A stretch of DNA of 63,645 nt, the filler included, from Chrysochromulina tobinii (lineage: Eukaryota), in the NCBI GenBank assembly GCA_001275005.1. It is 7 parts of 7 records of this genome, joined end to end, with 100 filler letters (N's around TTAATTAATTAA, not from the genome) between each part and the next. Parts side by side here need not be neighbours in the genome. Positions count along the whole stretch, not along the records: positions 10,349 to 23,168 come from JWZX01000592.1; 6 more parts are not named here. One strand, written 5' to 3'. Below, piece after piece: positions 10,349 to 61,742 of the stretch; positions within the stretch are counted from its first letter, which is position 1, and every line of letters starts with the position of its first letter. The translations under genes and the position numbers were made by a program. The notes beneath the pieces were generated by a model. The model was not told where the DNA came from. It made no database searches and saw only the letters and a program-made list of their open reading frames with translations.

Positions 10349-10698
10349 TTACGTGTGTAGGCTTTACTATTGACCCGCATTCACTCATTTGTCGGAAAGC
10401 GACGCGCTTGGTTTCACCCTGGCGTGCAACACGTCAATACGCCCCCCGCGCGCCGCGGGTAGCGAGACCGCTATCTACGAGCGCTCGAGTAGCCGCCGGT
10501 CTTCGTCTATAGCGACGGTAGCCAGAAGCAACGCCGCTCTAAAACGAAATGCTATACGGAACATACCGACGAGCACGGGGCGCTTCGTTGGCGGTGCGAG
10601 CTTCAGAAGAGTCGTATTAAAATTAGAGACCCGTATCGTTATCTGCGTCGGCTAGAGACAGGCACCTTGCGAGTTCGTGTCGTGCGGGCACCAAGCGC

Positions 10699-13317
10699 TC
10701 ATTCGAACAGCTTGTCCTTGCGCTTCACCGTCCTCCTCTTCTCGGGGTTGGCGGCCGCAGCCTCGGCGGCCTGTTTGGCTTTCTCGGCGTCGGCCTTTTT
10801 CTTTTTCTTGCCGATTCGGTCAAGGAGCGATCGCTCCTTTTGCTTCTTATCGTACTCCACCTTGAGCTTCTTCGCAGCCTTGATCTTGTCGCGCTTCATC
10901 TTACGCATGCGGTTGATATTGCGCCGCTCGCGCCACTGCGCGCGGCGCACCTCGAAGCGCTCGCGCAACGAGAGCGGCTTGCGGCGCTCGAGTTCGTCCC
11001 ACACGACTTGGGTGTGAACGACCGTATACGCGTCGTTCAGGATCGCAAGGAAGATGTTGAGCACGATGAAGAACATGAAGACGACGAAGAAGATGAAGAA
11101 AATGAGCGACCAGAGCGGCGAGACCTCGCGCATCTCCTCGAAGTCGAACTCGCCGAGCAGGATGAGGAAGAGCGTGCCAAGCGTGTCGATGAGCGATTTG
11201 AACCCCGCCGCCTGCATGCCGAAGATGTTGAGGCCCATGATGACGAAACCCATGAACAGGAAGACGAGCATGAGGAGGAAGACGCCCAGATCCGAGATCG
11301 CCTGCGACAGCGTGCGCTGGAGCAGCATCAGGTCTCGTTGCAGCGAAAAGTACTTGAGTGACTTGATGACGAGGACCATGATGGTGAAGGCGTCGATGAT
11401 GAAGACGCCTCCGTAGCTGCGTGCGAGTTCGGCCATCTCGCGGTACTCGTCCTCGGGCACCAAAGGAAATGGGTCGAAGGACGTGCGATTCTCGTTGAGG
11501 AAGAACATGAGGCGCAGAAAGATGGATAAGACCAGCGTGCCACAGAGGATGACGTCCACAATCACCCACGAGTCCTTGAAGAGGTTGCGGAAGTTCTTCG
11601 TGACTTTTTTCATGCGGTACATGCGCCACAAGATGTGCACACACTGCGCGATCGTGCCGATGACCACCATCGCCTCGGGGATGTACAGGAATATAATGCG
11701 GTTCGTCTCCTCGAAAGATTTGGGCTCGTACAGGTCGACACGTAGGATGCGGTTGAGAGCGTTTGGCACTACGCTCCCGCCCTGCGTGAACTCGATCATA
11801 AACTGCGAGATGCAGTAGTAGTTGTAGTTGCCATTGTACGTGTTCAGCGAGACGATGACCGCACGCGTCTGCACGTCTATCCACAAGTTCGACTTGAGGA
11901 AGTGGAGCGCCTCGATATAGGCGGAACGATTTCGGGGATCGAGGTCGCGCACGAAGCCGGAGCCATCGAAACTCGCGCCTGTCGCGGACCCTGAGATGTA
12001 GACGCCCTCCAGCTTGTTAGCGATGTCGGTCGAGAAGGTGAAGCCGGTCCCGTCGCCCGCGCCCTCCACCGCCTCCACCTCCCCCGCAAGGGGTCCAAAC
12101 GGCGCGGTGGATTTAAAGGCCTCGTCGTACGGCCCGTAGCAGTGGTCCACAAACTGGCGGTGGCGATGCATGCCGCTGCTCGTCACGTCCGTCTGCGAGA
12201 TGAGCTTCGAGAGGGTGCACGTGGTATCGGGCGCGATGCGCAGCTGGCGCAGCCGGATCTTGCCCACCACGCGGTTGTACGTCATCACATACCCTTTCCG
12301 GGCGTCTGGCACGTCGGCGCCGTTGTAGAGCGCGTCGGGGAATAGACCGTTCTGCAGCGGCCCCTCCATCCAGTCGAACATTTCGTTGGTGTTCGCGATG
12401 TCGAGGAAGGTGATCTCGCCGTACTCACCAAAGACCTCCTCCACGAACGCCGTCTGGATCGCCTCCTGCAGCAGGAACGCGTCGCGCACCGTGCGCCGGC
12501 TGTAGAGGGTCCAAATAAAGATGAAACTGAAGAAGAGGAACAGATAGAGCTCGTTGCGCATCTTGCGCCGGAGCGAGAGCTTCTGCTTCATGGTGAGGGT
12601 GCCGCCTTTGGCCTGCGCGAGCAGCAGCTCGTCCTCGACCGACGCGGCGATCGCGAGAAAAGACTGGTCCATCTCCTCCTCGCTCTCCTCCACCTCGGTC
12701 TCGGCACCATACATCTCGCCGCCCTCGTCCTGGACTTGCACCGCGACCGGCTTGATCTTCATCGCGATCTTGGACGCGGAGTTCCGATGCATCTCCAGCC
12801 GGCAGTACCCGTCGTTGGGCCAGATCGCGCCGCGCTCGTCCACCAGCATCACATCCTGCGCTGCCACGTCCCAGTAGCGTGCCGCATCATGTAGCAGCAT
12901 CTCGAAGGTGTAGTTGTCTTGCAGCGTCCAGAAGACCTCGTCGTCGTCAAACTCGACGCGCACCTTATCACTCACCGATACCGCCGACTGCTCCGTGATC
13001 GCCGAGGTGAACGCCTCGTCGCGGAAGCGCTCCTCCAGCACCTGCAGCAGCGCCGTCTCCACCTTCCGCGAGAGCTCATCCATCGTCATGCGGCTGTCGG
13101 CCACCACGATTTTCTCCTGCTGATCCGTCAGCTGCTTTTGCGCGTGAAGCTCGCCCATCAGCTGCTTGAGCCGCACGTTTGACGAAATGAGCTCCTCCTC
13201 CACATTGGCCCGCTCCTGCGTGATGTCCTTTAGCTTCTTTGAGACCTCCGCGTACTCCGTGTCCGCCTCATCGAACTGCTGCTCCAGATCCTTGATTTCA
13301 CGGCGGATAGCCGCCAT
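10699..13317 (-). CDS. Polycystin-2 / PKD2-like (TRPP) cation channel
   Basis: 872-aa intronless ORF: RLRQLR and LWIDxxTRAVIV extracellular polycystin-domain motifs, six TM helices, pore TLFLILLGEFDF, FIVLNIFLAILNDAY; N-terminal coiled coil. Confidence 0.92.
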   Translation of the reverse strand: MAAIRREIKDLEQQFDEADTEYAEVSKKLKDITQERANVEEELISSNVRLKQLMGELHAQKQLTDQQEKIVVADSRMTMDELSRKVETALLQVLEERFRDEAFTSAITEQSAVSVSDKVRVEFDDDEVFWTLQDNYTFEMLLHDAARYWDVAAQDVMLVDERGAIWPNDGYCRLEMHRNSASKIAMKIKPVAVQVQDEGGEMYGAETEVEESEEEMDQSFLAIAASVEDELLLAQAKGGTLTMKQKLSLRRKMRNELYLFLFFSFIFIWTLYSRRTVRDAFLLQEAIQTAFVEEVFGEYGEITFLDIANTNEMFDWMEGPLQNGLFPDALYNGADVPDARKGYVMTYNRVVGKIRLRQLRIAPDTTCTLSKLISQTDVTSSGMHRHRQFVDHCYGPYDEAFKSTAPFGPLAGEVEAVEGAGDGTGFTFSTDIANKLEGVYISGSATGASFDGSGFVRDLDPRNRSAYIEALHFLKSNLWIDVQTRAVIVSLNTYNGNYNYYCISQFMIEFTQGGSVVPNALNRILRVDLYEPKSFEETNRIIFLYIPEAMVVIGTIAQCVHILWRMYRMKKVTKNFRNLFKDSWVIVDVILCGTLVLSIFLRLMFFLNENRTSFDPFPLVPEDEYREMAELARSYGGVFIIDAFTIMVLVIKSLKYFSLQRDLMLLQRTLSQAISDLGVFLLMLVFLFMGFVIMGLNIFGMQAAGFKSLIDTLGTLFLILLGEFDFEEMREVSPLWSLIFFIFFVVFMFFIVLNIFLAILNDAYTVVHTQVVWDELERRKPLSLRERFEVRRAQWRERRNINRMRKMKRDKIKAAKKLKVEYDKKQKERSLLDRIGKKKKKADAEKAKQAAEAAAANPEKRRTVKRKDKLFE

Positions 13318-13770
13318 CGGCGACGGCTAGGATGCGTGGCAAGGCGCGCTTCGTGCTCGCACGCGCGGATGCGCGATATCGCCGACCGCACCCTGGGACA
13401 GCCCGGCGGCAGGGCCATCCAAAAATAGCCAACTTCGGAATTCGTTCGTTCGTTTCAGGGCCCTCTCGGCCAGACACACACCCACAAGCCCCGAAAAGGC
13501 GTGCGTCTGAGTGTGAATTTCAAGGCTGTGAATCCTTCACAACGCGCGCTTCTCCGGAGACACACTGACGCACATCCTTACGGACATATTCTCGGACACT
13601 TCACACATGCGATGACATCAGGGAGGACGCCGTCACGGACTCTCACCGTACACCGATAACAACCGCATCCAACAGGGCGTGGACGCGTCGTGCCGCAGAT
13701 GGTTGTGTGGCCCCGCGCCCCCCCCCTATGGATAGATTGCTGCGCCTTGGTCGTCGCCCATCTTGGCGCC

Positions 13771-16700
13771 TCACCTTTTGAGGGCCGCCGACTCGGAGAG
13801 CGTCTTCTGCAACCGCTGGGACAGGTCGACGTACGCGCCGCCGTGCTGGATTGCGAGGCGTGCCACGTGGGCCGCCGTGTTGCGCAGCTGTGCCTTGTCA
13901 TTGGGCGTGGGCGCCACTTTGGCCGCGAGCCCGAGCAGCTTGGCGCAGAGCGCGACGATTGGCTTGCTCGGCTCGGCGGTGCCGACGGCGAGCTCAAGCC
14001 ACTGAGTCAGGATCGCCACGAGCGCCCGCGCCGCATTCGCCTCCGTTGCCGCGAGCTCTCCCAGAGCGCTCAGCGCCGCCTCGAGCTCCCCGAGCAGAGA
14101 GCTGATCAGCTCCTGCAGCTTCTCCGTGTACTCGGGCTCGGAGGCGTACAGAACGTCGTTCGAGTCCACGCCGGGCACGCGGTACGGCAACTGGCGCTGC
14201 GCGTACGTCGAGAAGAGCGCGAGCATGCGCAGGTAGAGCAGCGGCTTCGACGCGAGCAGGCGCCACTTCAACTTTGGTTTTTGGACCTGGTTGAGCAGGC
14301 CGGCGGCCAAATAGAAGGGGCCGTTCTTCGGGTGGCCTGGCACCACGACGAGGAAGGCACATAAGCTCGAGAGCACCTCAAGCAGCGCCTCCTCGCGCCC
14401 GTTCGCCTCCCGAACGGCCAGGTTGCCCTGCGCCTCCGCGTGTTCGCCCTCCGCGAGCACCTCGGGCACCGCGGTCACGGCCGCCATGACCAGCGCGTCC
14501 ACCTGGGGAAGGAGCTGGTTCGCGAGCGCGACCTGCGCGCCGAGCAGGTTGAGCTTGATGCGCATGAGCGGCGCCTCGATCGTGGGCACCGTGATGAAGA
14601 CGAATGCGGCGCACGCGCGCTCGAAGGCGCCCGTCTTCTTCGTGTGACGCCCGCGCACAAGCGCGCGCGTGCTCATCATGAGTTGCGTCACGCCGAGTAC
14701 GAGCGTCGAGTGGACTGCATCGAGGTTGACGAAGGCGGCGCGGCAGTCGACGTAGAAGGAGAGCTGTGCCTCAAAGTCGGCGCCGAAGCCGACCTTGCGG
14801 ATGAAGGCCGTGATGAGCACACCCAGCTGGCGCCTCTCGTCATCGAAAGAAGTCGCATCGATCGAATCATGGAGCTGACGCGCCACATGCATCAGGCTAT
14901 TCACGAGCACCGGGTCCACAAACGTACCCGGCGTCGCGGCGAAGGTCTCCATGATGCGCCGCCAGATCTCAACGGCGTGCTCGCGGTCGAAGAGGGCGAG
15001 CAGCCGTTGGAGCGGCTCGAGGACGAAGATCGTCCCGAGCCTCTCAGGCCCCGACTGCTCGAGGATCGTGCTCACCTGATGAGGAAAGCAATCAGACGCA
15101 ATCAGTGGCCATCATCAGGGGCCATCAAGCATCATCAGGCCCCGACTGCTCGAGGATCGTGCTCACCACGCAAGCGAGCGGCCCATAGAGCTCCGTATAC
15201 GCCTTGTCGACGCTCACGCGCTTGAGCAGATCCTTGAGCAGCTTGTGCACCTCGGGCACGCCAAACTCGGTCAGCAGCAGCTGCAGGTACTGCGCCGCCA
15301 CGTCGACATAGATGCGTGCACTCTTTGATGCGCCGAGCTCCGCCCACACGTCGTTGAGCACCTGGAGCAACTCATCCTTCTTGGGCGGCTGCTTGCACAG
15401 GACGCGGCCGAGCGACACGTATAGGTGGTGGCGCGAGTACCCGCGCGCGTCGCTCTCCTTGATGAGGTCGCACATTGGGAGCGCGTTCGTCGCGATCACG
15501 CTCGCGTCGAAGGAGGAGATGATCGCATTGAGCACGATGGCGGCCTTGCACTGCTCGCGATATCTTTGGATGAGTGCGACGAGGGTCGCCTGGGTCGGGT
15601 GGTACTCAGCGAGCGAGTTGAGCAGCCACTCGAGCGCGGGCTGGAAGGTGCCAAAGTACTCGGTCGTCGTGATCTCCATCTTGACGTTGTGCAGCCCACG
15701 GATCAATTTTCCATCGGCGGCGTCGGCCGAAAAGGCGAGCTGGCGCTGGAAGATGGTGAATGTGTCGAGGACGGGCTCCTTGACGAGCAAGTGCGCGGAC
15801 GAGGGCGTGAGGTCGATCGCCTTGTGCACGAGGTACGAGCGTGCGTACGTGGCGGCGAGCGGGTCGCCGAATCCGCGGATCATGCGCGCGAGCCGCTGCA
15901 CGATGCCCGGCAGCTCGGAGCTGTCGATGAGCAGCCGGTAGCAGCGCAGGATGGAGAGCTCGACGTAGAATCTCGGCACGAGCTCGCGGATCGAGGCGAC
16001 CTTGTAGAACCAATTCTTGGTCGTCTCCTTGCCCTCCTCGGTGATCTCGGCAGGCGTGTATCCGGGCGGCAGCTTCTTGCCCGGAGGCTTACCCTTGTCG
16101 AGCACACGCTCGTATACGAGCTCTCCGAAGGCGTCGAGGATCTCGGCGACCACTGCGAAGACGGTCGGGAAAAAGGTGGGGAAGGAGGTGTCGCCGAGCA
16201 TCTTGCTCACCTGGATGGCGATCTTGAGCGCTCGAACACGCTCCTGGCCGTTCCACGCGGCGCGCAGCTCCTTGTTCAGGCTGTCGACACTCTCTACGAG
16301 TTTGCTCTGCGTCATATTTATGGTGCGTCCCTGCTCGACGGCGGTAGCCGCCTCGATCTGTTCGAGCCGGCCGCGCGTCTTGTGGTCGAGCATGACCTTC
16401 TTCTCGCCCGAAGGTCCCGCCTCGTCGATGTTCGAGCCCAGCTTCGAGGCGTCGCCGCCCTTGGAGTCGAGAATGTCCTGGTTCACACGCATGGTGCCTG
16501 TCGCCGCGTACTGCTTGAGGATCATCGCCCGACGGTCGCGCCAGGTGCGACGCGCATGCTCCTCGAGGGGTGGCGGGGCGATCACGGGGTTGCGGCCGCT
16601 CGCCGCAACGACGGACACGTCAAGCTTCGAGGGCTCGCCAAGCGGGTCGCCGAGCACGCCGAGCGGGTCGTCGCTGAGCGGGTTCGACGAGGCCGCCCCG

Positions 16701-16969
16701 ACCGGCTTCGCGCCGAGCGGTTTGTTGGAGCTCAGCGGGTCGCTCGCGCCGAGCGGATCGCTCGCCGCACCCAGAGGGTCGACGATCTCTTCCGGCGCCT
16801 TGGGAGGCGGCGCGCCCTTGGCGACTGCCTCGGCCGCCTCCTCCTCCTTTTTCTGGATGGCTTCGAGGCGCTCGACGGCCTCCTGCAGCGGATGACGTTC
16901 CGGAACGCTCGTAGCGCACGCGCGGGCCACCGCTTCGGCCGCGTAGTCGCGCTCCTTGGGCTGCCACAT
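13771..16969 (-). CDS. VPS35L: VPS35-like Retriever subunit (C16orf62 homolog); exons 16969-15167 and 15075-13771
   Basis: AWNGQERVRALKIAIQVSKML, ETTKNWFYKVASIRELVPRFYVE, RGFGDPLAATYARSYL, QLSFYVDCRAAF, VPGHP, GVDSNDVLY; GT-AG intron 15166-15076. Confidence 0.92.
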
Positions 16970-17371
16970 CGACTCTTGTGTCCCCGGCGGTGCCGGTATT
17001 CACGGCCACTGGTGTGATCAGAGGACTTTGAGCGCCACCCGGGAGGCGTAACCGCAGAGTCAAGTCAAGTCAGGTCAAGTCCCTCAGAATTTCGGCACAA
17101 ACAGTAGTACTTCGTCAGCGACGCGCGACGCCAATTGAACTCCGCACGGTTGCAGACTTGCAGTTCGCCCAGTATGATGTATGTTGTGCAGTACCAGTCG
17201 CTCCGCAGTCGAGTGCTGCACGCACTACAATTGAGGCTCGCACTCGAGCACAGCTAAGATAATAGCACCGCACTGTCGAGTGTGAAAATGCCGCGCCCGG
17301 TTTCGTATTGTAAATTATCGAAATGCCATAGCTCTTTTTTACGGGATTGTGCGTTGCCTGGGCGGGGGCAC

Positions 17372-17656
17372 GATATCGTGGAATCTCACGATATCGTCGG
17401 TGCGCGCGGCGATATCCGGTCCCGCCCCACGATATCGCGCCTCGCGCCCACGACAACGCGGGAAGGCACGATACCACGCCGCGTCGTGCGATATCGCGAG
17501 CCTATGTACGTTACCGCGCGGCCCACGGCATCGCAGATACCCACGATATCGCAGCCTCTCACACGATATCGGTGCCCTCCCAAGATATCGTGCGCGTTAC
17601 GATATTGCTAACCGGACTACAGACGTCTACAAAACGCGCGGAATCTCGCGATATCG
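17372..17656. repeat. Intergenic cluster of GATATC palindromes
   Basis: Nine GATATC sites at ~17372, 17390, 17411, 17431, 17490, 17545, 17565, 17584 and 17650. Confidence 0.8.
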
Positions 17657-17768
17657 TGACCCCCTCGTCGCGTGCTCGTCAAATAATATCGCAGTTATTT
17701 CGCACAAACCGACGAGTGGTGGGGTAATGTGCGTTCGGTTCTACGCGCTCCAAAAGAACTTGCGTGCT

Positions 17769-20277
17769 CTAGTCTGAAACTACGTTGCCCTCATTCAGCT
17801 GGCGCTGCTCGCGCCGCCTCTGATGCACTTCCAGCCAGCTCGAATAGCTGCTGGCGTCGCGGACGGCCTGGACGCCTGGCTGCAGCTCGCCCAGGTTGAT
17901 AAAGCTGGAGTCATGCTCCGACTCCACCGCCAATCGCTCGGCGTGGCCGCCATCGTCTGCGGTAGCATCCGCGGCGGCCGCAGTCGTCGCATCGTCGGCA
18001 CCCTCCTCGCGCCGCCACGCCGCGCGGCAGACAGGGCATTCACGGCGCGCGTGCACACCACGAGCGGCGAACCATCGTTGCATGCAGCGTGCGTGGAAGA
18101 GCCGCCCGCACCCGAGGCCGCAGTGGGTCGTAGGTGGGCCGTCGTGCACGTGCGCAGTCCTCGACGCCGTCGCGGCGGTTGGTGGACCGTGAGCGAGCGC
18201 CTCGGCGAGCACTTCGTCCGCCGCCTCATCCTCGATGGGGTCGTAGCAGATGGCGCACGGCTCATCCGCGTCGGCCGCTCGCGCAGCCACCTCGGCCACC
18301 ACCGGCGCCGGCGCCGGCGCCGCCGTCGCCTCCTCCCGCCCCATGACGCGCTGGTACGCGCGGCGTACAGCCGGGGACGCCAGTAGCTCCGCCGCTGTGC
18401 CCTCCTCCAAAGGCGCTCCGACGCCGCTGTCAGAGGCGCGGCGTTCGGCTGGCGTCTCGCCGTCGGGCAGCCCGTCGCCATCGGCTGGCGCATGGCCACG
18501 CGCGTGGCGTGGGGTGAGGATCTGGCGCAGCTCCTCGCGCAGCAGAGCGCGCTGCTGCAGGATGTGCAAATCGCGCTGTACGCGAAGCACCTTGGCATAC
18601 ACGAAGAGCAGGTGCTTGCACACCGTCCGCCGATCGCGGAAGTCGACGCATGTGCAGCTAGGCATGCGCGCCACGAGCACCTCGTACACGTTGCCTGTAG
18701 AGCCGAGCACTGCGAACTGCACGCGCAGACTCACCAGGCCGCTCTGGCTCACCTCGGAGAGATCGCGTCGCTCGATGAGGTAGAGTCGCTCTGACATGGC
18801 GCGCTCGAGACGCTGTGCAGATGCGACGCTCGACGAGCGGAACGGCGCCGCGCGCTTCTCGCCGCCGCCGCCGCCACCGCCCCCACTGCCACCAGGACTG
18901 GCGCCGTGGCCGTCCGCGCCGCTGCCCCCGGAGCGTGAGCGCTTATGCCCCGCCTCCTTCCCTTTGGCCTTTGGTGGAGGTGGCTTGGGCGGCGGGGCCA
19001 GCAGGCCCGCGCGCATCGCACGGGCGCGACGCACGACCCACGACTCATGCACGATCGGGGCGTATGGGCACGCGCCACGTACAATCGAGCCCGCCTCGAC
19101 ACCCTCCGCCGCGACAATCAGCGTCACCTCCTGCTTCGAGTACCTGCTATTCGCGCCCACGACGGCGGCGCCCAGCTCCTGCAGTCGCGCCATCAGCACC
19201 TCTCGTGACTGGTAGAGCTTGAACTCCTTGCCTACTACCCATGCGACCGTGCCGGGAGGCAACTCGAGCGGCTCCTCCGACGCGGGCGCCGAGGCCGGCG
19301 TGGCCGCGCACGCCGACGAGGAGGGCGTACCGGTACCCGCCGCGACGGCGCCGCACGCCCCATGCTCGCCCGCCGTCTCGGGCACCTCACCTTGATTCGG
19401 CCCGAAATGGATCGCCAGGGCCGCCTCGACGCTCCCCTCGCCCTCTGCGAGGATGCGCGACAGGTACGCCGGCGATGCATGAATCCCAATCACCTCGGCC
19501 AGCATCGCCATCAGCGGCGCGCTGGCCTCCGCCTGCGCCGCCTCTGCCACCGCCGCTGGCTTGAGAAGAGGCAGGCTGCTGCTGCAGCTGGGGCTATAGC
19601 TGCTGCTGCTGCTGCCCAGGGGCAACGGCGAGGCAGAGGCCAGCGGCGGAGCCAGCCGTCTGCCAGAAAGACGCCAGAGCGTTTTCTGGTGCTCCACGTC
19701 CACGTCAGCCATCCACGCGTCCTCCACAGAAGAGGACGGACGGACGGACGTCAGGTCACCAACACGGCGCTCGTCGCGCCGACCTGAGCGTCCGAAAGAG
19801 TCCGCATCGATGCCGGTCCCGCTGCTCCCAGCCATCGGCGCGTCCTTGGGCCGAAAATGCCACGTGAGCGTGCGCCGATCGTGCGCCGCGTTCATATCCT
19901 TGGCAAAGAGGCTCGCGAGCTTCTCGCGGGCTGCAGCCGTGTCCGCATTGACGGTGGGTACGAGCACCGACGGGCGCAGCGCGCGAACGAGCGCATGAAG
20001 CTCGGGGAAGGACGAATGCTCTGAGTAGGGCACTCCGTACAAGCGCGTGCGCCCGTCGTTCTCCGTCCAGGGCTTGGGGATGAAGATGGAGCCGCATGGC
20101 GGGCAGACGCTAGCAGCACTGCCGATGCCGATGCTGCCGATACTGCCGATGCTTCCGCCTCTGCCGCCGCTGCCGATGCTGCCGATGCTGCCGCCGCTGC
20201 CGCCGCTGCCGCCGCGGCCGCCGCTGCTTCGGCCGCGGCCGCCGCTGCTGCGTTTGCTCGCAGCAACACAGCGTGTC

Positions 20278-20312
<35 letters not shown>

Positions 20313-21533
20313 GTTACCATCGACAGCATCGGCCGGGCGCCCGCGACGGTGTGGGATCATATCGATCTCATCCTCGTCCTCGGAAGAGGACTCGACGGTG
20401 GCGGCCTCAATGGGGGCCTGGAGGGAGGCGGTGGCATCGCCGCCCTCGCCGCCGCCGTCGCCCTCACCGCCCTCGCCGCCCCTGCCGACCTCGCCGCCAC
20501 CTCCGCCACCGCCACCCTCGCCGCCGCCCTCGTCGCCGCCCTCGTCGCCGCCTGCTGCTGGACGCGCGTGCGCATACGCGCGCTGGCACGCGTGCGCGGC
20601 GTGCGCCTTGGTGTACGTCCATCCGGTCGGTCGGAAGGTGACGACCGCCGCGTACCGCTCGCCGCTCTGCTGCAGGGTCTCGAGCATCTCCTGATGAGCC
20701 TCGAGTCCCATGCCGCCCAGCGGGCTCACGTGCACACGCACATCGGGCGCGTCGGACTCCGTGTGCAGCCGATCGTCCCAGGCGTGGCAGAGCCGAAGCG
20801 AGACGGCGCGCCGCGACGGCACGAGCGCCCGCCCGCCCGCGGCGCGAGCCACCGCCGAGATGGCCTTCTCCTTCCCGACCTGATACGAGCCAACGACGAA
20901 GAGAGTGCGCGGCTCGCGCGCGAGCTCGGCCGCGACGATGGCGCCCAGCTGCTCGAGCGCGAGCTCCTGCGGCGGGAACGTCCAGCGCGACTGCGCGTAC
21001 GTCGTATCAAGGTAGAGGCAGTCGAGGTAGGAGGCGGCGGCGACGACGGCAGAGTCGGCACAGGCACCTCCGCTTGAAGCGGCAGGAGTGGAAGCGGCCG
21101 ATCCCTCTGTAGTCGCCCGCGATGCGGCAGCAACGGCTGCACTGATTATGGGGTCGCTGGCGCGGCAGTCGCCAGTGTGCAGCGCGCGATAGCCAGTCGC
21201 GAGGTGTACGAAGAGGAACATGAGCGAGCCCGGGCAGTGGCCCGCGTCGAGCGCAGTGACGGCCACACCCTCGACGGTGAGCGTCTCGCCAACCTCGAGC
21301 GTCTGGAGGAGCTTGCCTTTGACTCCGATGGTTGCGCGCAGCACGCGCGCCGTGAGCCCCGAGCAGTAGATTGTGCCGACGTCAAAGGAGCTATGCAGAC
21401 CACAGGTGTGGTCCGAGTGGGCGTGCGTGAGAAAATAGTGGCGTACCTCGGGCTGGAGGAAGTTGAAGCCATCAACGATGAACGCGTCGAGCGGCGCGCG
21501 CAGCCGCTTGAGGCTGGAGTGCTGCGTGGCCAT
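17769..21533 (-). CDS. SNM1/PSO2-type metallo-beta-lactamase/beta-CASP DNA repair nuclease fused to BRCT-like, SWIM and RING domains
   Basis: THAHSDH, DAGHCPGS, HTGDCR, LYLDTTY, FRPTGW, PYSEHSS. BRCT-like LGAAVV...IVHESWV; SWIM CTCVDF..CKH; RING CAIC...C..H..C...CPVCR. Confidence 0.88.
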
Positions 21534-21836
21534 GATGTTGCGCCCTCGCCGAGGGCGCAGGCAGCGCGCAAGCCTTCGGCAGCCGTGGCGCGTGCAAAAA
21601 AGGTGTGAATGACGCAAACCAGGCTGTGAATGCCAACAACCCTCTTAATACCCGGACGGTGCGGCAACAGCTCCAGGTCGGCTGTGCTGTTGGCTCCAAT
21701 CTCCATGATGATCTCCGTCGTACCCAGCGCTGTGGGCAGCGTCCCATTCCGCGCGCAGCCTCGCCACGTCGATGGTCGCGGAGAGCATCCCGTTGAGCCG
21801 AGTCGGGCGCTGGCGACACATCCGATCGGCAAGGCG

Positions 21837-23168
21837 CTAGTTTCCAGTGCCGTTGAGCACGAGAGGAACCCACGTCCGTGCTGCCCACGTCGGTGCCCAC
21901 GTCGCATCGAGGGGCCTGAGTGCCATCCTGCACTCCTTAATCGCGGCCTCCTCGATCTTGGGCTCGTAGACCCGGGTGTCGACACCATACGTCAGCGGGT
22001 TCGATCCTGGACCGCTGTGGGCGGCGTCAAGTTCTCTGACCGTCAAATTTCCAGCCGTGCCCACAGCCTCGAGGAAGATATGCCGGAACTGCTTCGACCC
22101 GAGCTGGGGTCCTTTGGAGCCGGGTCGACCCCAGCTTAGGCCCGAGCCTGCAATGATTCGCTTCGCCCATACGTGCCCGCCAGAGAGCCCTCTCCAGAGA
22201 CTGCTCGGGAGCACGCTGCACGGTGCGTTGCCGCTCAGCCGGACCCATCCGCCGCTGATCAGCGGGAAGAGCGTATTGCCAAGCCGCCGTTGCTCGCAAT
22301 CGGAACTGGCGTCGGTCGGTGCAGCACTCTAGCCAAGAGCGCCTCGTTGCTTTCACCGCAGCACGCAGGTCGTAGTGGAGACATCAGACGGCGCCCATGA
22401 AGTTGAAGACGGCGTCCAGACGGCCGGGCGCAGTTGGCCGGTAGATATCGCGTGACTTGGGTGGGTCCGAGCTTGCATTCGTAAGAGCCCAGGTGCGGCT
22501 GTCCGCGCTGGCACTGTGTGATCGCTGGCACTGTGTGATTGCCTCAGCCATCCCGAAGATCTGAGCGGCGAGATCGCGCGGAGCTGCCCAGAAGCCATCA
22601 GACCCAGGGGCGTGGCATGCGAGCGCCGTCGTCGCGGACGGCCACCGGCACCACGGCAGCACTGGGCCAGCAAAGAGCTGGTCCGGACGTGCGTATGCAA
22701 CCAGCCCGAATCTCCGGCCGTGGGCGGCCTCGTGCCGCGCGATGGCCGCAGCGCACCACGAGAGCCCCAGAGCCATGTGCGCACCACGCGGGAAGGACTG
22801 GTTGCGGTAGTGCCTCGTGGCGCCTTGAATCTCACACAGGCTAGCTTCGGGCTGGAGGGCCTCAAGCAGCGTGTCATTCGCTTCCACGACGGCTGCGAAC
22901 GCGTTGGCATCCTCGCCGCGCCAGCCCACCGTGGTCGCTGCTATCGCGCCACTCCCGTTGAGGACCACAGCCTCGCCCAGCATGGGGCGCGACCATCCTC
23001 GCTCGAGGGCGAGCAGAATTGTTGGAATGCTGGCGGACTGCGAGCTGCGATCGCTCTTGAGGTGAAAAAAGGTACGGTGGCCATGATCAGCTTTCCGATC
23101 TGATGCGTCGGGCGCCAGCGGCCGCACAAGAAGCTGCCAATGTTGATCGAGCATGAATGGCGTCGCAA
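21837..23168 (-). pseudogene. Fragmented hypothetical gene, 5'-truncated
   Basis: Successive coding-like ORFs 22384-23154, 22259-22531 and 21837-22214 lie in different frames. A perfect 17-nt tandem duplication at 22506-22539 explains the first shift. The ARPD motif suggests a glycosyltransferase-like protein (weak). Confidence 0.4.
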
Positions 23169-58090: not shown

Positions 58091-61000
58091 ATGTCTACAC
58101 CTTTATCAACGGTCAAGTTTTGGGAGACAACGGGGGCGCTCCGTACAACGCGCCGAAATGGGCACGTCAAGTTTGCTGCGAGCTATCGGCGCTCACTCGC
58201 GCGTGCAGCCCATTCGGCGTGGACGGTGATCGCTCTTCTTCTTCTTGCCTCGCGATGTGAAGCGAGCGGATCGACTGCGAGGTGCTGCACGACGTCGGAC
58301 ATACGCTATGAGGGCATGAGTGGAATGCAGTGCTATGATACAGCCGAGCTCCGATGCTATGGAACGCGGCAGGGCCCTTGGATTAGGCATGCAGGCATAA
58401 AGGCGCAGCTATCGACGAGTTGCGCGGACGTTGAACTCAGGTTCTGGAGATGCACACAGGCGCTTGGGGCGGAGCTAGATCCCACGCCGGCGTTTGACGA
58501 AACTCTGCGGCACGAACTTGAGCCTACGCCGAGCCCGAGGTGGGATCCGCCGAGTCAACAGGAGCAGCAGCGAGCGAGCGCGAGACCAGAACCGGATCTG
58601 CACTGGCAGGATGGAGCGGTTGATGCCGTGCGCGAGACGCGATCACAACGCGCTTTGAGGGCAAGGTGGGCGGTGACGAGACGCGCGTACGTCGTACTGG
58701 CAGATGTTGGAAGCTTGAAGCGGAGACGGCTGCGATGGTACATCAGCAGGAAGGATTGGAAGAGACGTATGAGATCGCTGCGCGGAAACACCGTCGAGGA
58801 AATGTTCAACGTCGCGCTCTGGAATGCGCGGGAGTTCCATGCCGACGCATGCCCGGCGCGCGAGGCATCTCGGGCGAAGGCGCTATGGCTCAGTCGACGT
58901 TTGCAAGAGGAAGACGTTGACGTTTGCTTTCTGCTTGAGATGATGGGATCACAGGAGGCGTTCACAGCTGAGGTCTATGGACTGCGGGCCATGGCAAAGA
59001 AGATTGGCTACGCGGTTCGATGGATGGTGGGCGAGGGTGGAAGTTTGCGCGAGCAGCGACAAAGTGGGGATTCTTTCACCAACGGCATCGCCGTACTCGT
59101 CAAGCAGGCGACGTGCACCATTGAGCGTCACGCGCGTCTCGAGGAAAGAGTTTTGGGCGTATGGATCAGAGGTCGTGGGACGAAGGAGCAGCTGCAGACG
59201 CGGATTGCCGCGGTTCATGGGTTGCATCACAACGGCGCCTCGAGCTTCGAGAGGCAGCTGCAGGCTACGTATGCGTGGGCGGCTGATCCAGCTCAAGCAG
59301 TGAAAGGCTGCATCGTGGTGGGCGACTTCAATTACGTGGCGGAGGAGACGTGGCGATCTTCTCGCACGGCGTTGAGCACCAACGATCGGGTGTTTCGGGA
59401 CTACATCTCGCAGCCAGGTGCGGAATATGTTCTTCCTATTTCTCCACAGCCACTGATCGTTTGGACTCGGAAGGGCGGAGACGCGGCCGAGGCGGGGGAT
59501 GCAGATGGCTTTGGATCCATGCTCGATGGAGCCGTGACAATTGGGGCAGAGTGCAGCCTCTGGAATAGGACGGTGGTGGACTTCGCCCTTCGCCATGACG
59601 GCCCAACGGATGGAACGTCCAAACCGCTCTCGGATCACGCGTGGGTCACCTTCTCCAGAGCGGTTCCAAAACTTGCAACCCGCGGTGAGACGAGACCTGT
59701 CTCAGCGTTACCCAGAGGCGACGCTCGAGTCAAGGACGGTTACTGCAGGCGCGTACGGGAGGGCGGTGCGTTCGAGGAGCTGCTCTCGGCGCGGGGCGTG
59801 GTACATGCTACAGCTGTGGCGGTGCAATCGCTACGAAGGGTGGCGGAGCAGGCTGCCGCAGAAGCACGGAGGCGCTTTGAGGAGCGGCCATTAGAGACAG
59901 CGCACAGGTGGCGCAGATGGCTGCAAGAGGCATACGCAGCACGACATCGGGGGCTATCACCGCACGAGATGGAAGGTGGTCTATTCAACTATCACTCGCG
60001 CCTATGGCTCATTCGAGAGAGATATGCTGGGGCCGGGGACGACGTGTGCTGGGCTAAGATCATCAGGCGATGTCGGCGGTGCTGGACGAGCGCGAACCGG
60101 AGACTAGTGCGCAGGCAGCAGCGAGACGACGAGCGACTCAGGGAGCTTTCATTGGGAATCGTCGAGGGCAGGGGCAGCAAGGATCTAGCGCAGGTGGCTA
60201 TGCAAGCGTGGAAAGCGATCCGCCCTCCGCGGACCAGCCTGGCGTTCGACAAATTCTATCCGAGAGACGATGTCGCCAACGCTCCAGTGACTGCGGCGGA
60301 CGATCCAGACGCATTTCTCAATGGGGTGGCGCGCGAGGGCGACCGACTCGTCAAAGGATTCTCGTCCACCCCGCCGATCATCGACGCGTTCAAAGCCTTC
60401 TGCAAGGTCTTCTGCCCAACCTATGAGACTCTGCGCGGGCGGGATGGTGGAGTTTGGGAGCTTGACAAGGAGCTCACATTCCCGGTCTTCCTGCAAGTGC
60501 TCAAACGGGTGCCAAGGGGGAAGGCTGTGGGGTACGGTGGGTTCTCTATTGAGCTGCTCATTCACGCGGATCGGGAGATCAAGAAGGCGTTCTACGACTG
60601 TCTTATGGCGGACTTGCGAGGTGGGGATTTTCCCCCGTCGTGGCGTAAGGTCATCTATGTACTGCTCACGAAGCCGCCACCCAACAACCCGGCACTCATT
60701 TCTGAGAGACGAGAGATCGCCCTGATGGCGCAGGATATGAAGTTGATCATGCACATGGTGCGGGCGACGGCCTATCGGCTCATCACGGGCAGACTTCGGT
60801 CGGAGCAGTGCGGATGGCTACCGGGGTATGGTACTGTTGACGCCGGGCTCCCATTGGCGGCCGTGATTCAGCAGGCGCAGCGACAGCAGCAGTCGATATG
60901 GATTCTGTACGTCGATCTCGCAACGTTCTTTCCGCGCATCGATCGTGAAGCTCTTACGGTTGCCGAGGTTCTGGTCGGGCTCCCTCCCCAAGTCATTGAG

Positions 61001-61742
61001 CTCGTCGGGCAGATCTATGGCGCGGGGCGCGCGGTGGCGGCCGAGGCGGTTGAGTGTCAGTTCGACACCGCCATCGGGCTCAGCGCCTCCTTCAGAAACC
61101 ATATGGGAGCGTTGATGGGAGAAGTGCTCTCCCCAGACCGAGCAAAGATCATTCTTAACTCGATCCTGTGGGCGATCAAGCTGCACGTGCAGGGAGTTCA
61201 TCTGTTTGGCTTCGGGGAGGACGAGGAAGGGTGCATCCGAGCGATCGCGAGCTTAGCCTACGCTGACGATTGGGCAGGGACGTTTGGCAGCGAAGCGGAT
61301 CTGAAGCGAGCCTGGGCGGTATGGAATGTCTGGGTCCCGATCTCTGGCTCTAAGCTGGGCATCAAGGGCAAGCTCAAAACCGTGGTCACTGGCGTGCATC
61401 GTGATGGGCAAGGCGGGGAGTCTGACATACCTGACCCGCAGCTCATCACTCTCGATGGCACCTGCGTGCCGACTCTCTCACGGAGTGAGGCATACAAACA
61501 CCTGGGGGTCTTACGCGCTGCGCTGGGCGGCGATGGGGCGGCGGCGGAATCGTTAAAGAAGCAGCTGCGAGTTGCGATTGGCCGCGTGGCGCGCATGCAC
61601 AAACCGTCCAGGCGAGATATGATCTTGGTTTCGAATGGTCTATTTCAGGGGCTAGCGGGGTTCAAGTGCAGCACGGTGTACTACCCCTTCGAATGGATGG
61701 AGGACATCGAGAAGGAATGGAGGAGAATGTTCAACAAAAAGG
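58091..61742 (+). mobile_element. Non-LTR (LINE-type) retrotransposon ORF: AP-endonuclease + reverse transcriptase, 3'-truncated
   Basis: EN motifs WNA, LLEM, GIAVLVK, GDFN, SDH. RT motifs KAVGYGG, PPSWRK, EQCGW, YVDL, GEVLSP, YADD, YKHLGV. No stops over ~3.65 kb. Confidence 0.92.

What the first reader, a model, noticed from the sequence alone, without database searches (positions are those of the whole stretch)
15044..15167. VPS35L intron begins with a perfect copy of the downstream exon
Seen: an exact 33-nt direct repeat at 15044-15076 and 15135-15167. On the minus strand the 91-nt intron starts GTGAGCACGATCCTCGAGCAGTCGGGGCCTGA, identical to the next exon's start, followed by CTGAT-rich filler and TTTCCTCATCAG. 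Zero mismatches imply a very young intron. The filler differs from the 24-nt core class, suggesting a second cassette type using the same duplication route.
Basis: partly seen in the sequence, partly recalled or inferred. Interest (0 to 1): 0.75.

Follow-up and report, generated by a model that had tools for sequence, protein, structure and literature searches.

The report
New intron built from exon copy
A freshwater alga carries a small, spliced intron that its close relatives lack, made of an exact copy of the next 32 coding bases plus a piece resembling the ends of many of its other introns, which likely shows DNA repair copying from existing introns to build new ones.

Summary
Confirmed. 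The exact 33-nt repeat brackets a 91-nt GT-AG intron in a Chrysochromulina tobinii-type VPS35L gene. RNA contigs skip it in 2 of 2 RNA runs; DNA contigs hold it at flank depth. Orthologues at 80-87% identity read through the site and keep the duplicated peptide, so the exon is the original and the intron is a lineage-specific gain. Near-identical uninterrupted ORFs suggest intron-less alleles (DNA not seen). The layout is common: 14 of 39 acceptors of this filler type and 13 of 26 of the 24-nt-core type start with a copy of the next exon (about 0.3 expected). Duplication lengths run from 8 to 55 nt, filler starts vary and the two filler types mix, so this is not a fixed-end, fixed-TSD transposon and not a cleanly separate second cassette. 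Best reading (0.5): microhomology-guided break repair or template switching duplicates the target and copies the 3' end of another intron between the copies. Rivals are a variable-TSD mobile element and repair from an intron-less template. Chrysochromulina Introners and repeat-flanked new introns in Daphnia are published, with 4-12 nt repeats. The scan noted this footprint before in another gene of this genome.

The parts
15167..16969 (-). VPS35L coding exon 1 (codons 1-601)
   Evidence: the spliced product equals P0039
15076..15166 (-). 91-nt GT-AG intron, phase 0
   Evidence: only GT..AG register; skipped in RNA contigs of X11 and X13
15135..15167 (-). Upstream repeat copy: last exon G plus the first 32 nt of the intron; supplies the GTGAGC donor
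15076..15134 (-). 59-nt filler of CTGAT-type units ending in the family acceptor module
   Evidence: similar sequence in many contigs of X1, summed depth about 7,100-7,500 over 15076-15100 against 88 on the flank, not a copy number
15076..15095 (-). Acceptor module: branch-point-like CTGAT, short pyrimidine run, CAG (branch point inferred)
15125..15127 (-). In-frame stop if the intron is retained (614-aa truncated product)
   Evidence: ORF 15125-16969; P0033 ends GPDDA
15044..15076 (-). Downstream repeat copy: acceptor G plus the first 32 nt of exon 2 (VSTILEQSGPE); the original copy
   Evidence: peptide kept in P0077 and P0063
13771..15075 (-). VPS35L coding exon 2 (codons 602-1035 and stop)

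Best explanation
This is a spliced 91-nt intron, absent from close orthologues, made of an exact copy of the next 32 exon bases plus 59 bases resembling the 3' ends of other introns in this genome, likely formed in one microhomology-guided DNA repair or template-switch event. Inferred steps: (1) a break or stalled strand end forms just after ...GGGCCTGA in the exon; (2) the end anneals by a few bases to the CTGAT repeats of another intron and copies through its acceptor AG; (3) it rejoins the gene 32-33 nt upstream at G|GTGAGC, which duplicates that stretch. The first copy gives the 5' splice site and the filler gives branch point and 3' splice site, so splicing restores the protein exactly (shown). 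Selection would keep only events that end at an AG and start at GT/GC, or that fall inside or beside an existing intron (inferred).
For: Splicing and presence in DNA. Gain polarity: P0077 (87%), P0063 (80%) and P0081 (81%) read through the site, and P0064, on an NCBI contig of the same 2,622-nt length as P0077's, runs into an intron elsewhere, so these calls are unspliced; 20 of 21 orthologues at 51-65% span the site. Generality: 14 of 39 CTGAT-type acceptors (focal site left out) and 13 of 26 core-type acceptors score 10 or more, against permutation means of 0.37 and 0.23 (maximum 2) and 0 in the offset control. Duplications vary from 8 to 55 nt and fillers have no shared start. Duplication-plus-filler units are presence/absence differences between 97-99% identical alleles, e.g. 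77 nt (L037 vs L033, L043), 109 nt (L034 vs L026), 75 nt (L032 vs L027, a filler that does not end in AG). One event is antisense to its host gene (window 3102-3205). Mean entry microhomology 0.75 vs 0.38 nt, p=0.002, 18 of 19 junctions testable. A second locus shares 43 nt across the entry junction with 2 differences (X1 record 7). An RNA contig over the same stretch (X11 record 13) overlaps the duplication end by 6 nt and reads an acceptor followed by 12 of 13 bases of the duplication start (rough chance 2e-3): a candidate donor with homology at both switch points.
Against: The microhomology signal is weak: about 1 nt on average; maximum microhomology was not significant (p=0.12 and 0.21); and the focal junction had no library match in that test. 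The candidate donor rests on the 30-nt loose end of one RNA contig of depth 4.2, read by eye, and the direction of copying is not shown. Family acceptors are predicted from motifs, not RNA-verified, in loci selected for the filler motif. In 9 of 14 duplications the first copy follows CAG, by eye mostly an older intron's acceptor, so many extend an intron instead of making a new one. One 169-nt family intron is present/absent with only an AG repeat (L027 vs L032). A non-LTR-type endonuclease/RT ORF lies in the window, so retro-mobilisation is possible. T645A occurs in both a split call (P0034) and a whole call (P0035), so the apparent intron-less alleles need recombination, loss, RNA origin or assembly collapse.
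Confidence: 0.5

Rival explanations
1. A non-autonomous mobile element (Introner) with variable-length target duplications inserts at G|GT sites, mobilised by a LINE reverse transcriptase (5'-truncated copies of intron RNA) or by a Replitron-like HUH enzyme.
For: Dispersed similar 3' ends. Exit at or within a few bases of the AG in clean cases. Replitron-1 inserts after RG with variable TSDs, and one Replitron protein is reported in C. tobinii (passages). An endonuclease plus RT ORF lies at window 58091-61735 (RT below Pfam's cutoff). Chrysochromulina Introners are published.
Against: No conserved 5' end, no poly(A) tail or terminal direct repeat seen, mosaic fillers, and polymorphic units whose fillers stop before any AG. 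No full-length copy of this filler in 266 kb of loci (best 42 of 46 nt). The same footprint occurs with two unrelated 3' modules.
Confidence: 0.22
2. The copy arose by repair from an intron-less template (cDNA or an intron-less allele): an older intron's 5' part was overwritten by the next exon's first bases and its 3' part kept. The duplication would then be younger than the intron.
For: Unit length clusters near 81 nt and long copies go with short fillers (rho -0.58, n=28 after dropping 7 rows; -0.51, all 35 rows). Uninterrupted near-identical ORFs exist.
Against: With a truncation-aware null the length constancy is not significant (P=0.14, n=29). Allelic pairs show units added while the older acceptor stays intact (L034 vs L026). 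Orthologues show no intron here, so a prior gain is needed as well.
Confidence: 0.13
3. Plain tandem duplication of the exon segment, with the filler growing later by slippage or conversion.
For: Pure tandem duplications and unit copy-number changes occur between alleles. Tandem genomic duplication is a recognised route (passages).
Against: The target is GCGTG|GTGAGC, with no AG to serve as acceptor, so a bare 32-33-nt duplication would not be an intron. The filler matches distant loci, and the copies have no mismatch.
Confidence: 0.1
4. Assembly artefact, or an ancient intron.
For: Only contigs were seen, and the DNA runs may be the source strain.
Against: Loop depth equals flank depth, RNA skips it with GT..AG, and orthologues read through.
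Confidence: 0.03

Closest known systems
Neointrons from staggered double-strand-break repair in Daphnia pulex (PMC4202315, passages; review PMC3443670, passages)
   Same: New intron flanked by a direct repeat of the adjacent exon; repeated secondary events inside young introns; presence/absence polymorphism.
   Different: Daphnia repeats are 4-12 bp; here 8-55 nt. Here the insert is recognisably the 3' module of other introns in the same genome.
Introners of Chrysochromulina sp. and Symbiodinium/Polarella (PMC9860276, passages and section 7; bioRxiv 10.1101/2020.10.14.339549, part 1 of 4; PMC12130899, passages)
   Same: Families of similar introns; one splice site carried and the other taken from the duplicated target (the Symbiodinium layout: 3' site carried, 5' site from the TSD).
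   Different: Published TSDs are fixed at 4 or 8 nt (3-9 bp in general), and the Chrysochromulina example carries the 5' site with a 4-bp TSD. Here the duplication is long and variable, the 5' end is not conserved and fillers are mosaics.
Tandem genomic duplication of AGGT (PMC3443670, passages)
   Same: An exon duplication supplies splice signals and leaves the protein unchanged.
   Different: The target has no AG; the acceptor comes from foreign filler.
Replitron-1 of Chlamydomonas (bioRxiv 10.1101/2022.12.15.520654, passages)
   Same: Insertion after RG with variable-length target duplications.
   Different: Replitrons are 0.9-3.6 kb with terminal direct repeats; none is seen here, and they are not described as introns in the passages read.

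Membership tests
U2 spliceosomal intron | Removed from RNA with GT..AG ends, restoring the frame | tested here: met
Recently gained intron | Absent at the same position in close orthologues | tested here: met
   protein-level read-through in P0063, P0077, P0081; their DNA was not seen
Recently gained intron | Empty allele within the species | tested here: inconclusive
   4 uninterrupted vs 5 split calls among 15 listed of 82 members; DNA or RNA origin not shown
Introner (TIR DNA transposon type) | Fixed short TSD (3-9 bp) | tested here: not met
   8-55 nt, variable
Introner (TIR DNA transposon type) | Conserved terminal inverted repeats | tested here: not met
   a 7-nt CTGATGA/TCATCAG pair exists here (by eye), but filler starts differ across the family
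Introner (broad sense) | Several introns similar end to end | tested here: inconclusive
   3' ends shared; best match 42 of 46 nt, no end-to-end copy in 266 kb; whole genome not held
Introner (broad sense) | Autonomous partner element | not testable with these tools
   no genome held
Non-LTR retro-insertion | Variable TSD and 5' truncation | tested here: met
Non-LTR retro-insertion | Poly(A) or LINE-shared 3' tail (feature recalled) | tested here: inconclusive
   no poly(A) in the fillers; the 3' end of the window's RT ORF is cut by a contig end
Microhomology-mediated templated insertion | Microhomology at the junctions | tested here: inconclusive
   mean excess significant (p=0.002 and 0.0135), maximum not significant
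Microhomology-mediated templated insertion | Identifiable donor locus | tested here: inconclusive
   one candidate from contig loose ends
Tandem genomic duplication (AGGT) | Both splice sites come from the duplicated AGGT | tested here: not met
   the target reads GTG|GTGAGC; the AG is in the filler

The most novel reading that the evidence does not exclude
Chrysochromulina gains introns without a transposon: repair of breaks in exons copies the branch-point and acceptor end of existing introns between two copies of the target, so introns seed new introns genome-wide, and the process is still running and polymorphic in lake populations.
Probability: 0.35. Interest if true: 0.8.

Novelty: new variant of a known kind. 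Interest (0 to 1): 0.55.

Why it matters
Where the sequence of new introns comes from is a long-standing open question; most well-documented bursts are put down to transposons. Here about a third to a half of the sampled motif-bearing introns keep a readable duplication, allelic presence/absence units are visible between lake and culture strains, and the species is cultured with DNA and RNA data. That makes the repair-versus-transposon question directly testable on hundreds of events. The single intron by itself changes nothing in the VPS35L protein.

Tried and rejected
No whole genome is held, so no genome-wide count was possible. The viral-contig motif scan gave one match inside apparently coding sequence (L001), not used. 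The search for related loci found nothing in viral contigs and two short VPS35L-like fragments on one contig in genome contigs that do not cover the site. Pfam gave no hit for the gene or its halves; identity rests on PDB and named homologues. The intron RNA folds no better than shuffles (z -0.83), so a hairpin-type element is not supported. Constant unit length looked strong but not under a truncation-aware null. The automated duplication-plus-filler listing (237 rows, 72 tagged with an acceptor) counts nested arrays and both strands repeatedly, so its counts are not used. P0065 breaks near codon 605, but its tail fits a frame-shifted reading of the normal exon over 17 residues (null mean 4.2, null maximum also 17 because null windows could include the true site), so I read it as an indel, not an intron. 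The second read-laying run did not show the loose end of X1 record 7. Eight paper searches listed no paper on long exon-duplicated introns in Chrysochromulina. The supplements of the two Introner surveys were not opened and may list these families; PMC8355091 was seen as abstract and outline only.

Full report
Observation. The window is seven contigs joined by N-linkers; the finding lies in the second, 10349-23168. Two identical 33-nt copies sit at 15044-15076 and 15135-15167. Triplet shuffles of the contig give a longest nearby repeat of 11.7 nt on average and 14 at most (100 shuffles). Deleting 91 nt restores a 1035-aa ORF, and only one of 34 equivalent registers reads GT..AG: minus strand 15166..15076, between codons 601 and 602. 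The protein equals P0039, annotated as the upf0505 protein of Chrysochromulina tobinii, and matches human VPS35L in the PDB at E 1e-144.

It is real and spliced. Of 20 runs listed I laid four. Both RNA runs have a contig that skips exactly 91 nt with GT..AG ends; neither DNA run does. In DNA the insert forms a 118-nt unitig at depth 81.8 beside flanks of 88.7 and 87.3 (X1), and 57.5 beside 43.1 and 45.8 (X9); the repeat core works out at 170 in X1. So the insert is in nearly all copies of that culture. L039 carries the same locus on a 43-kb contig at 99.99% identity. These may all be the source strain, and no raw reads were seen. A retained intron would stop translation at codon 615.

It is a gain. 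The public gene calls do not splice, since P0033 ends inside the intron. P0077 (87%), P0081 (81%) and P0063 (80%) read through the site and keep V-[SQ]-T-V-L-E-Q-S-G-P-E, so the exon copy is the original. P0064 (88%), on an NCBI contig of the same length as P0077's, runs into an intron near codon 537, which points to genomic DNA (inferred to be the same contig). Twenty of 21 orthologues at 51-65% span the site, some on contigs of 19-83 kb; the other is a C-terminal fragment. Among 15 listed of 82 cluster members, four are uninterrupted across the site with 1-3 substitutions (P0001, P0035, P0041, P0043; longest contigs 3.2-10.5 kb), five are split at it, one is the annotated spliced protein and five are uninformative fragments. 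This suggests intron-less alleles, but their DNA was not seen, and T645A occurs in both a split and a whole call.

It is one of many. The filler's 3' end found 44 metagenome loci, 266 kb with L001, that collapse to about 16 locus groups. From 154 raw acceptor-like sites, 64 were unique and 40 had no filler in the next 70 nt. Leaving out the focal site, 14 of 39 have an upstream copy of the next exon scoring 10 or more, against a permutation mean of 0.37 (maximum 2) and 0 in an offset control. For the 24-nt-core type (50 raw, 28 unique, 26 kept) the count is 13 of 26 against 0.23. Copies run from 8 to 55 nt with 0-4 mismatches. Ten of the 14 start with GT, and nine follow a CAG, by eye mostly the acceptor of an older intron, so many events lengthen an intron. 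Acceptors are motif-predicted and the loci were chosen for the motif, so these are not genome-wide rates. Five of 26 core-type introns also carry CTGAT modules.

Allelic evidence. Fifteen locus pairs at 97-100% identity were aligned. They differ by whole duplication-plus-filler units: 77 nt (L037 vs L033 and L043), 109 nt (L034 vs L026), 74 nt (L038), 82 and 86 nt (L041), and 75 nt in L032, whose filler stops without an AG. One 169-nt family intron is present in L027 and absent in L032 with only AG repeated. Polarity is unknown without an outgroup. In the window, 3102-3205 is an 18-nt duplication with filler antisense to its host gene.

Mechanism. Fixed-TSD transposons do not fit: published Introner TSDs are 3-9 bp, and 4 bp in Chrysochromulina sp. 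(PMC9860276, passages and section 7; 4 and 8 nt in dinoflagellates). Simple AGGT duplication fails because the target has no AG. Repair copying predicts microhomology. Mean entry microhomology is 0.75 vs 0.38 nt (p=0.002, 18 of 19 junctions) and 0.83 vs 0.37 (p=0.0135, 13 of 19), but maximum microhomology is not significant and the focal junction was untestable there. The three longest perfect core-type copies run straight into the first G or GC of the core. For the focal intron, X1 record 7 shares 15098-15140 with 2 differences. X11 record 13 shares 15105-15140 with 3 differences, overlaps the duplication end by 6 nt, and upstream reads an acceptor followed by 12 of the duplication's first 13 bases (rough chance 2e-3). 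That is what a donor array offering both switch points would look like, but it is one low-depth contig end and the direction is unproven. I give microhomology-guided repair or template switching 0.5, a variable-TSD mobile element 0.22 (Replitron-1 behaviour; an endonuclease/RT ORF in the window), overwrite from an intron-less template 0.13 (the length clustering near 81 nt does not survive a truncation-aware null), and plain duplication 0.1.

Comparison and novelty. It works like the staggered-break neointrons of Daphnia (repeats of 4-12 bp; PMC4202315, passages) and like Introners that carry the 3' site and borrow the 5' site. It fails the TIR and fixed-TSD tests, and broad Introner membership stays open without the genome. 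Eight searches listed no paper on this long-duplication footprint in Chrysochromulina; the survey supplements were not opened. The scan noted the same footprint earlier in a polyketide synthase gene of this genome (e1-2577349) and read it as a mobile sequence. My tests agree on the footprint but favour repair copying. Verdict: real, a new variant of a known kind, interest 0.55.

Noticed in passing
window 2033-4640 (+): A gene with several stacked repeat-flanked introns (duplications at 3475/3543, 3560/3640, 3758/3863, 4177/4278), one with the 24-nt core; looks like a prolyl 4-hydroxylase-type gene by eye, but its first exon alone had no Pfam hit.
   Followed up: partly
window 5553-5771 (-): Two CTGAT-type acceptors in tandem; the second unit starts with a degenerate copy of the next exon.
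   Followed up: no
window 58091-61735 (+): ORF with endonuclease/exonuclease/phosphatase and weak reverse transcriptase matches, likely a non-LTR retrotransposon cut by the contig end.
   Followed up: partly
window 17769-21533 (-) and 10699-13317 (-): Neighbours of VPS35L: a DNA-repair metallo-beta-lactamase gene and a polycystin channel gene, both single long ORFs, so this contig is intron-poor.
   Followed up: partly
window 261-1200 (+) and 7700-8350 (-): Two arrays of 69-nt units in opposite orientation, probably leucine-rich repeats, with similar sequence.
   Followed up: no
L007, L019, L044 and L026 4870-5170: Head-to-tail arrays of 4-7 intron-like units, each ending in the family acceptor; possible donors or recursive splicing substrates.
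   Followed up: no
L003 about 1400-1540: A 55-nt duplication in which the intron copy reads GTAAGC and the exon GTCAGC, a change towards the donor consensus.
   Followed up: no
L045, L046: Spliced-looking VPS35L fragments on a contig titled as a bacterial MAG, likely a mis-binned eukaryotic contig.
   Followed up: no
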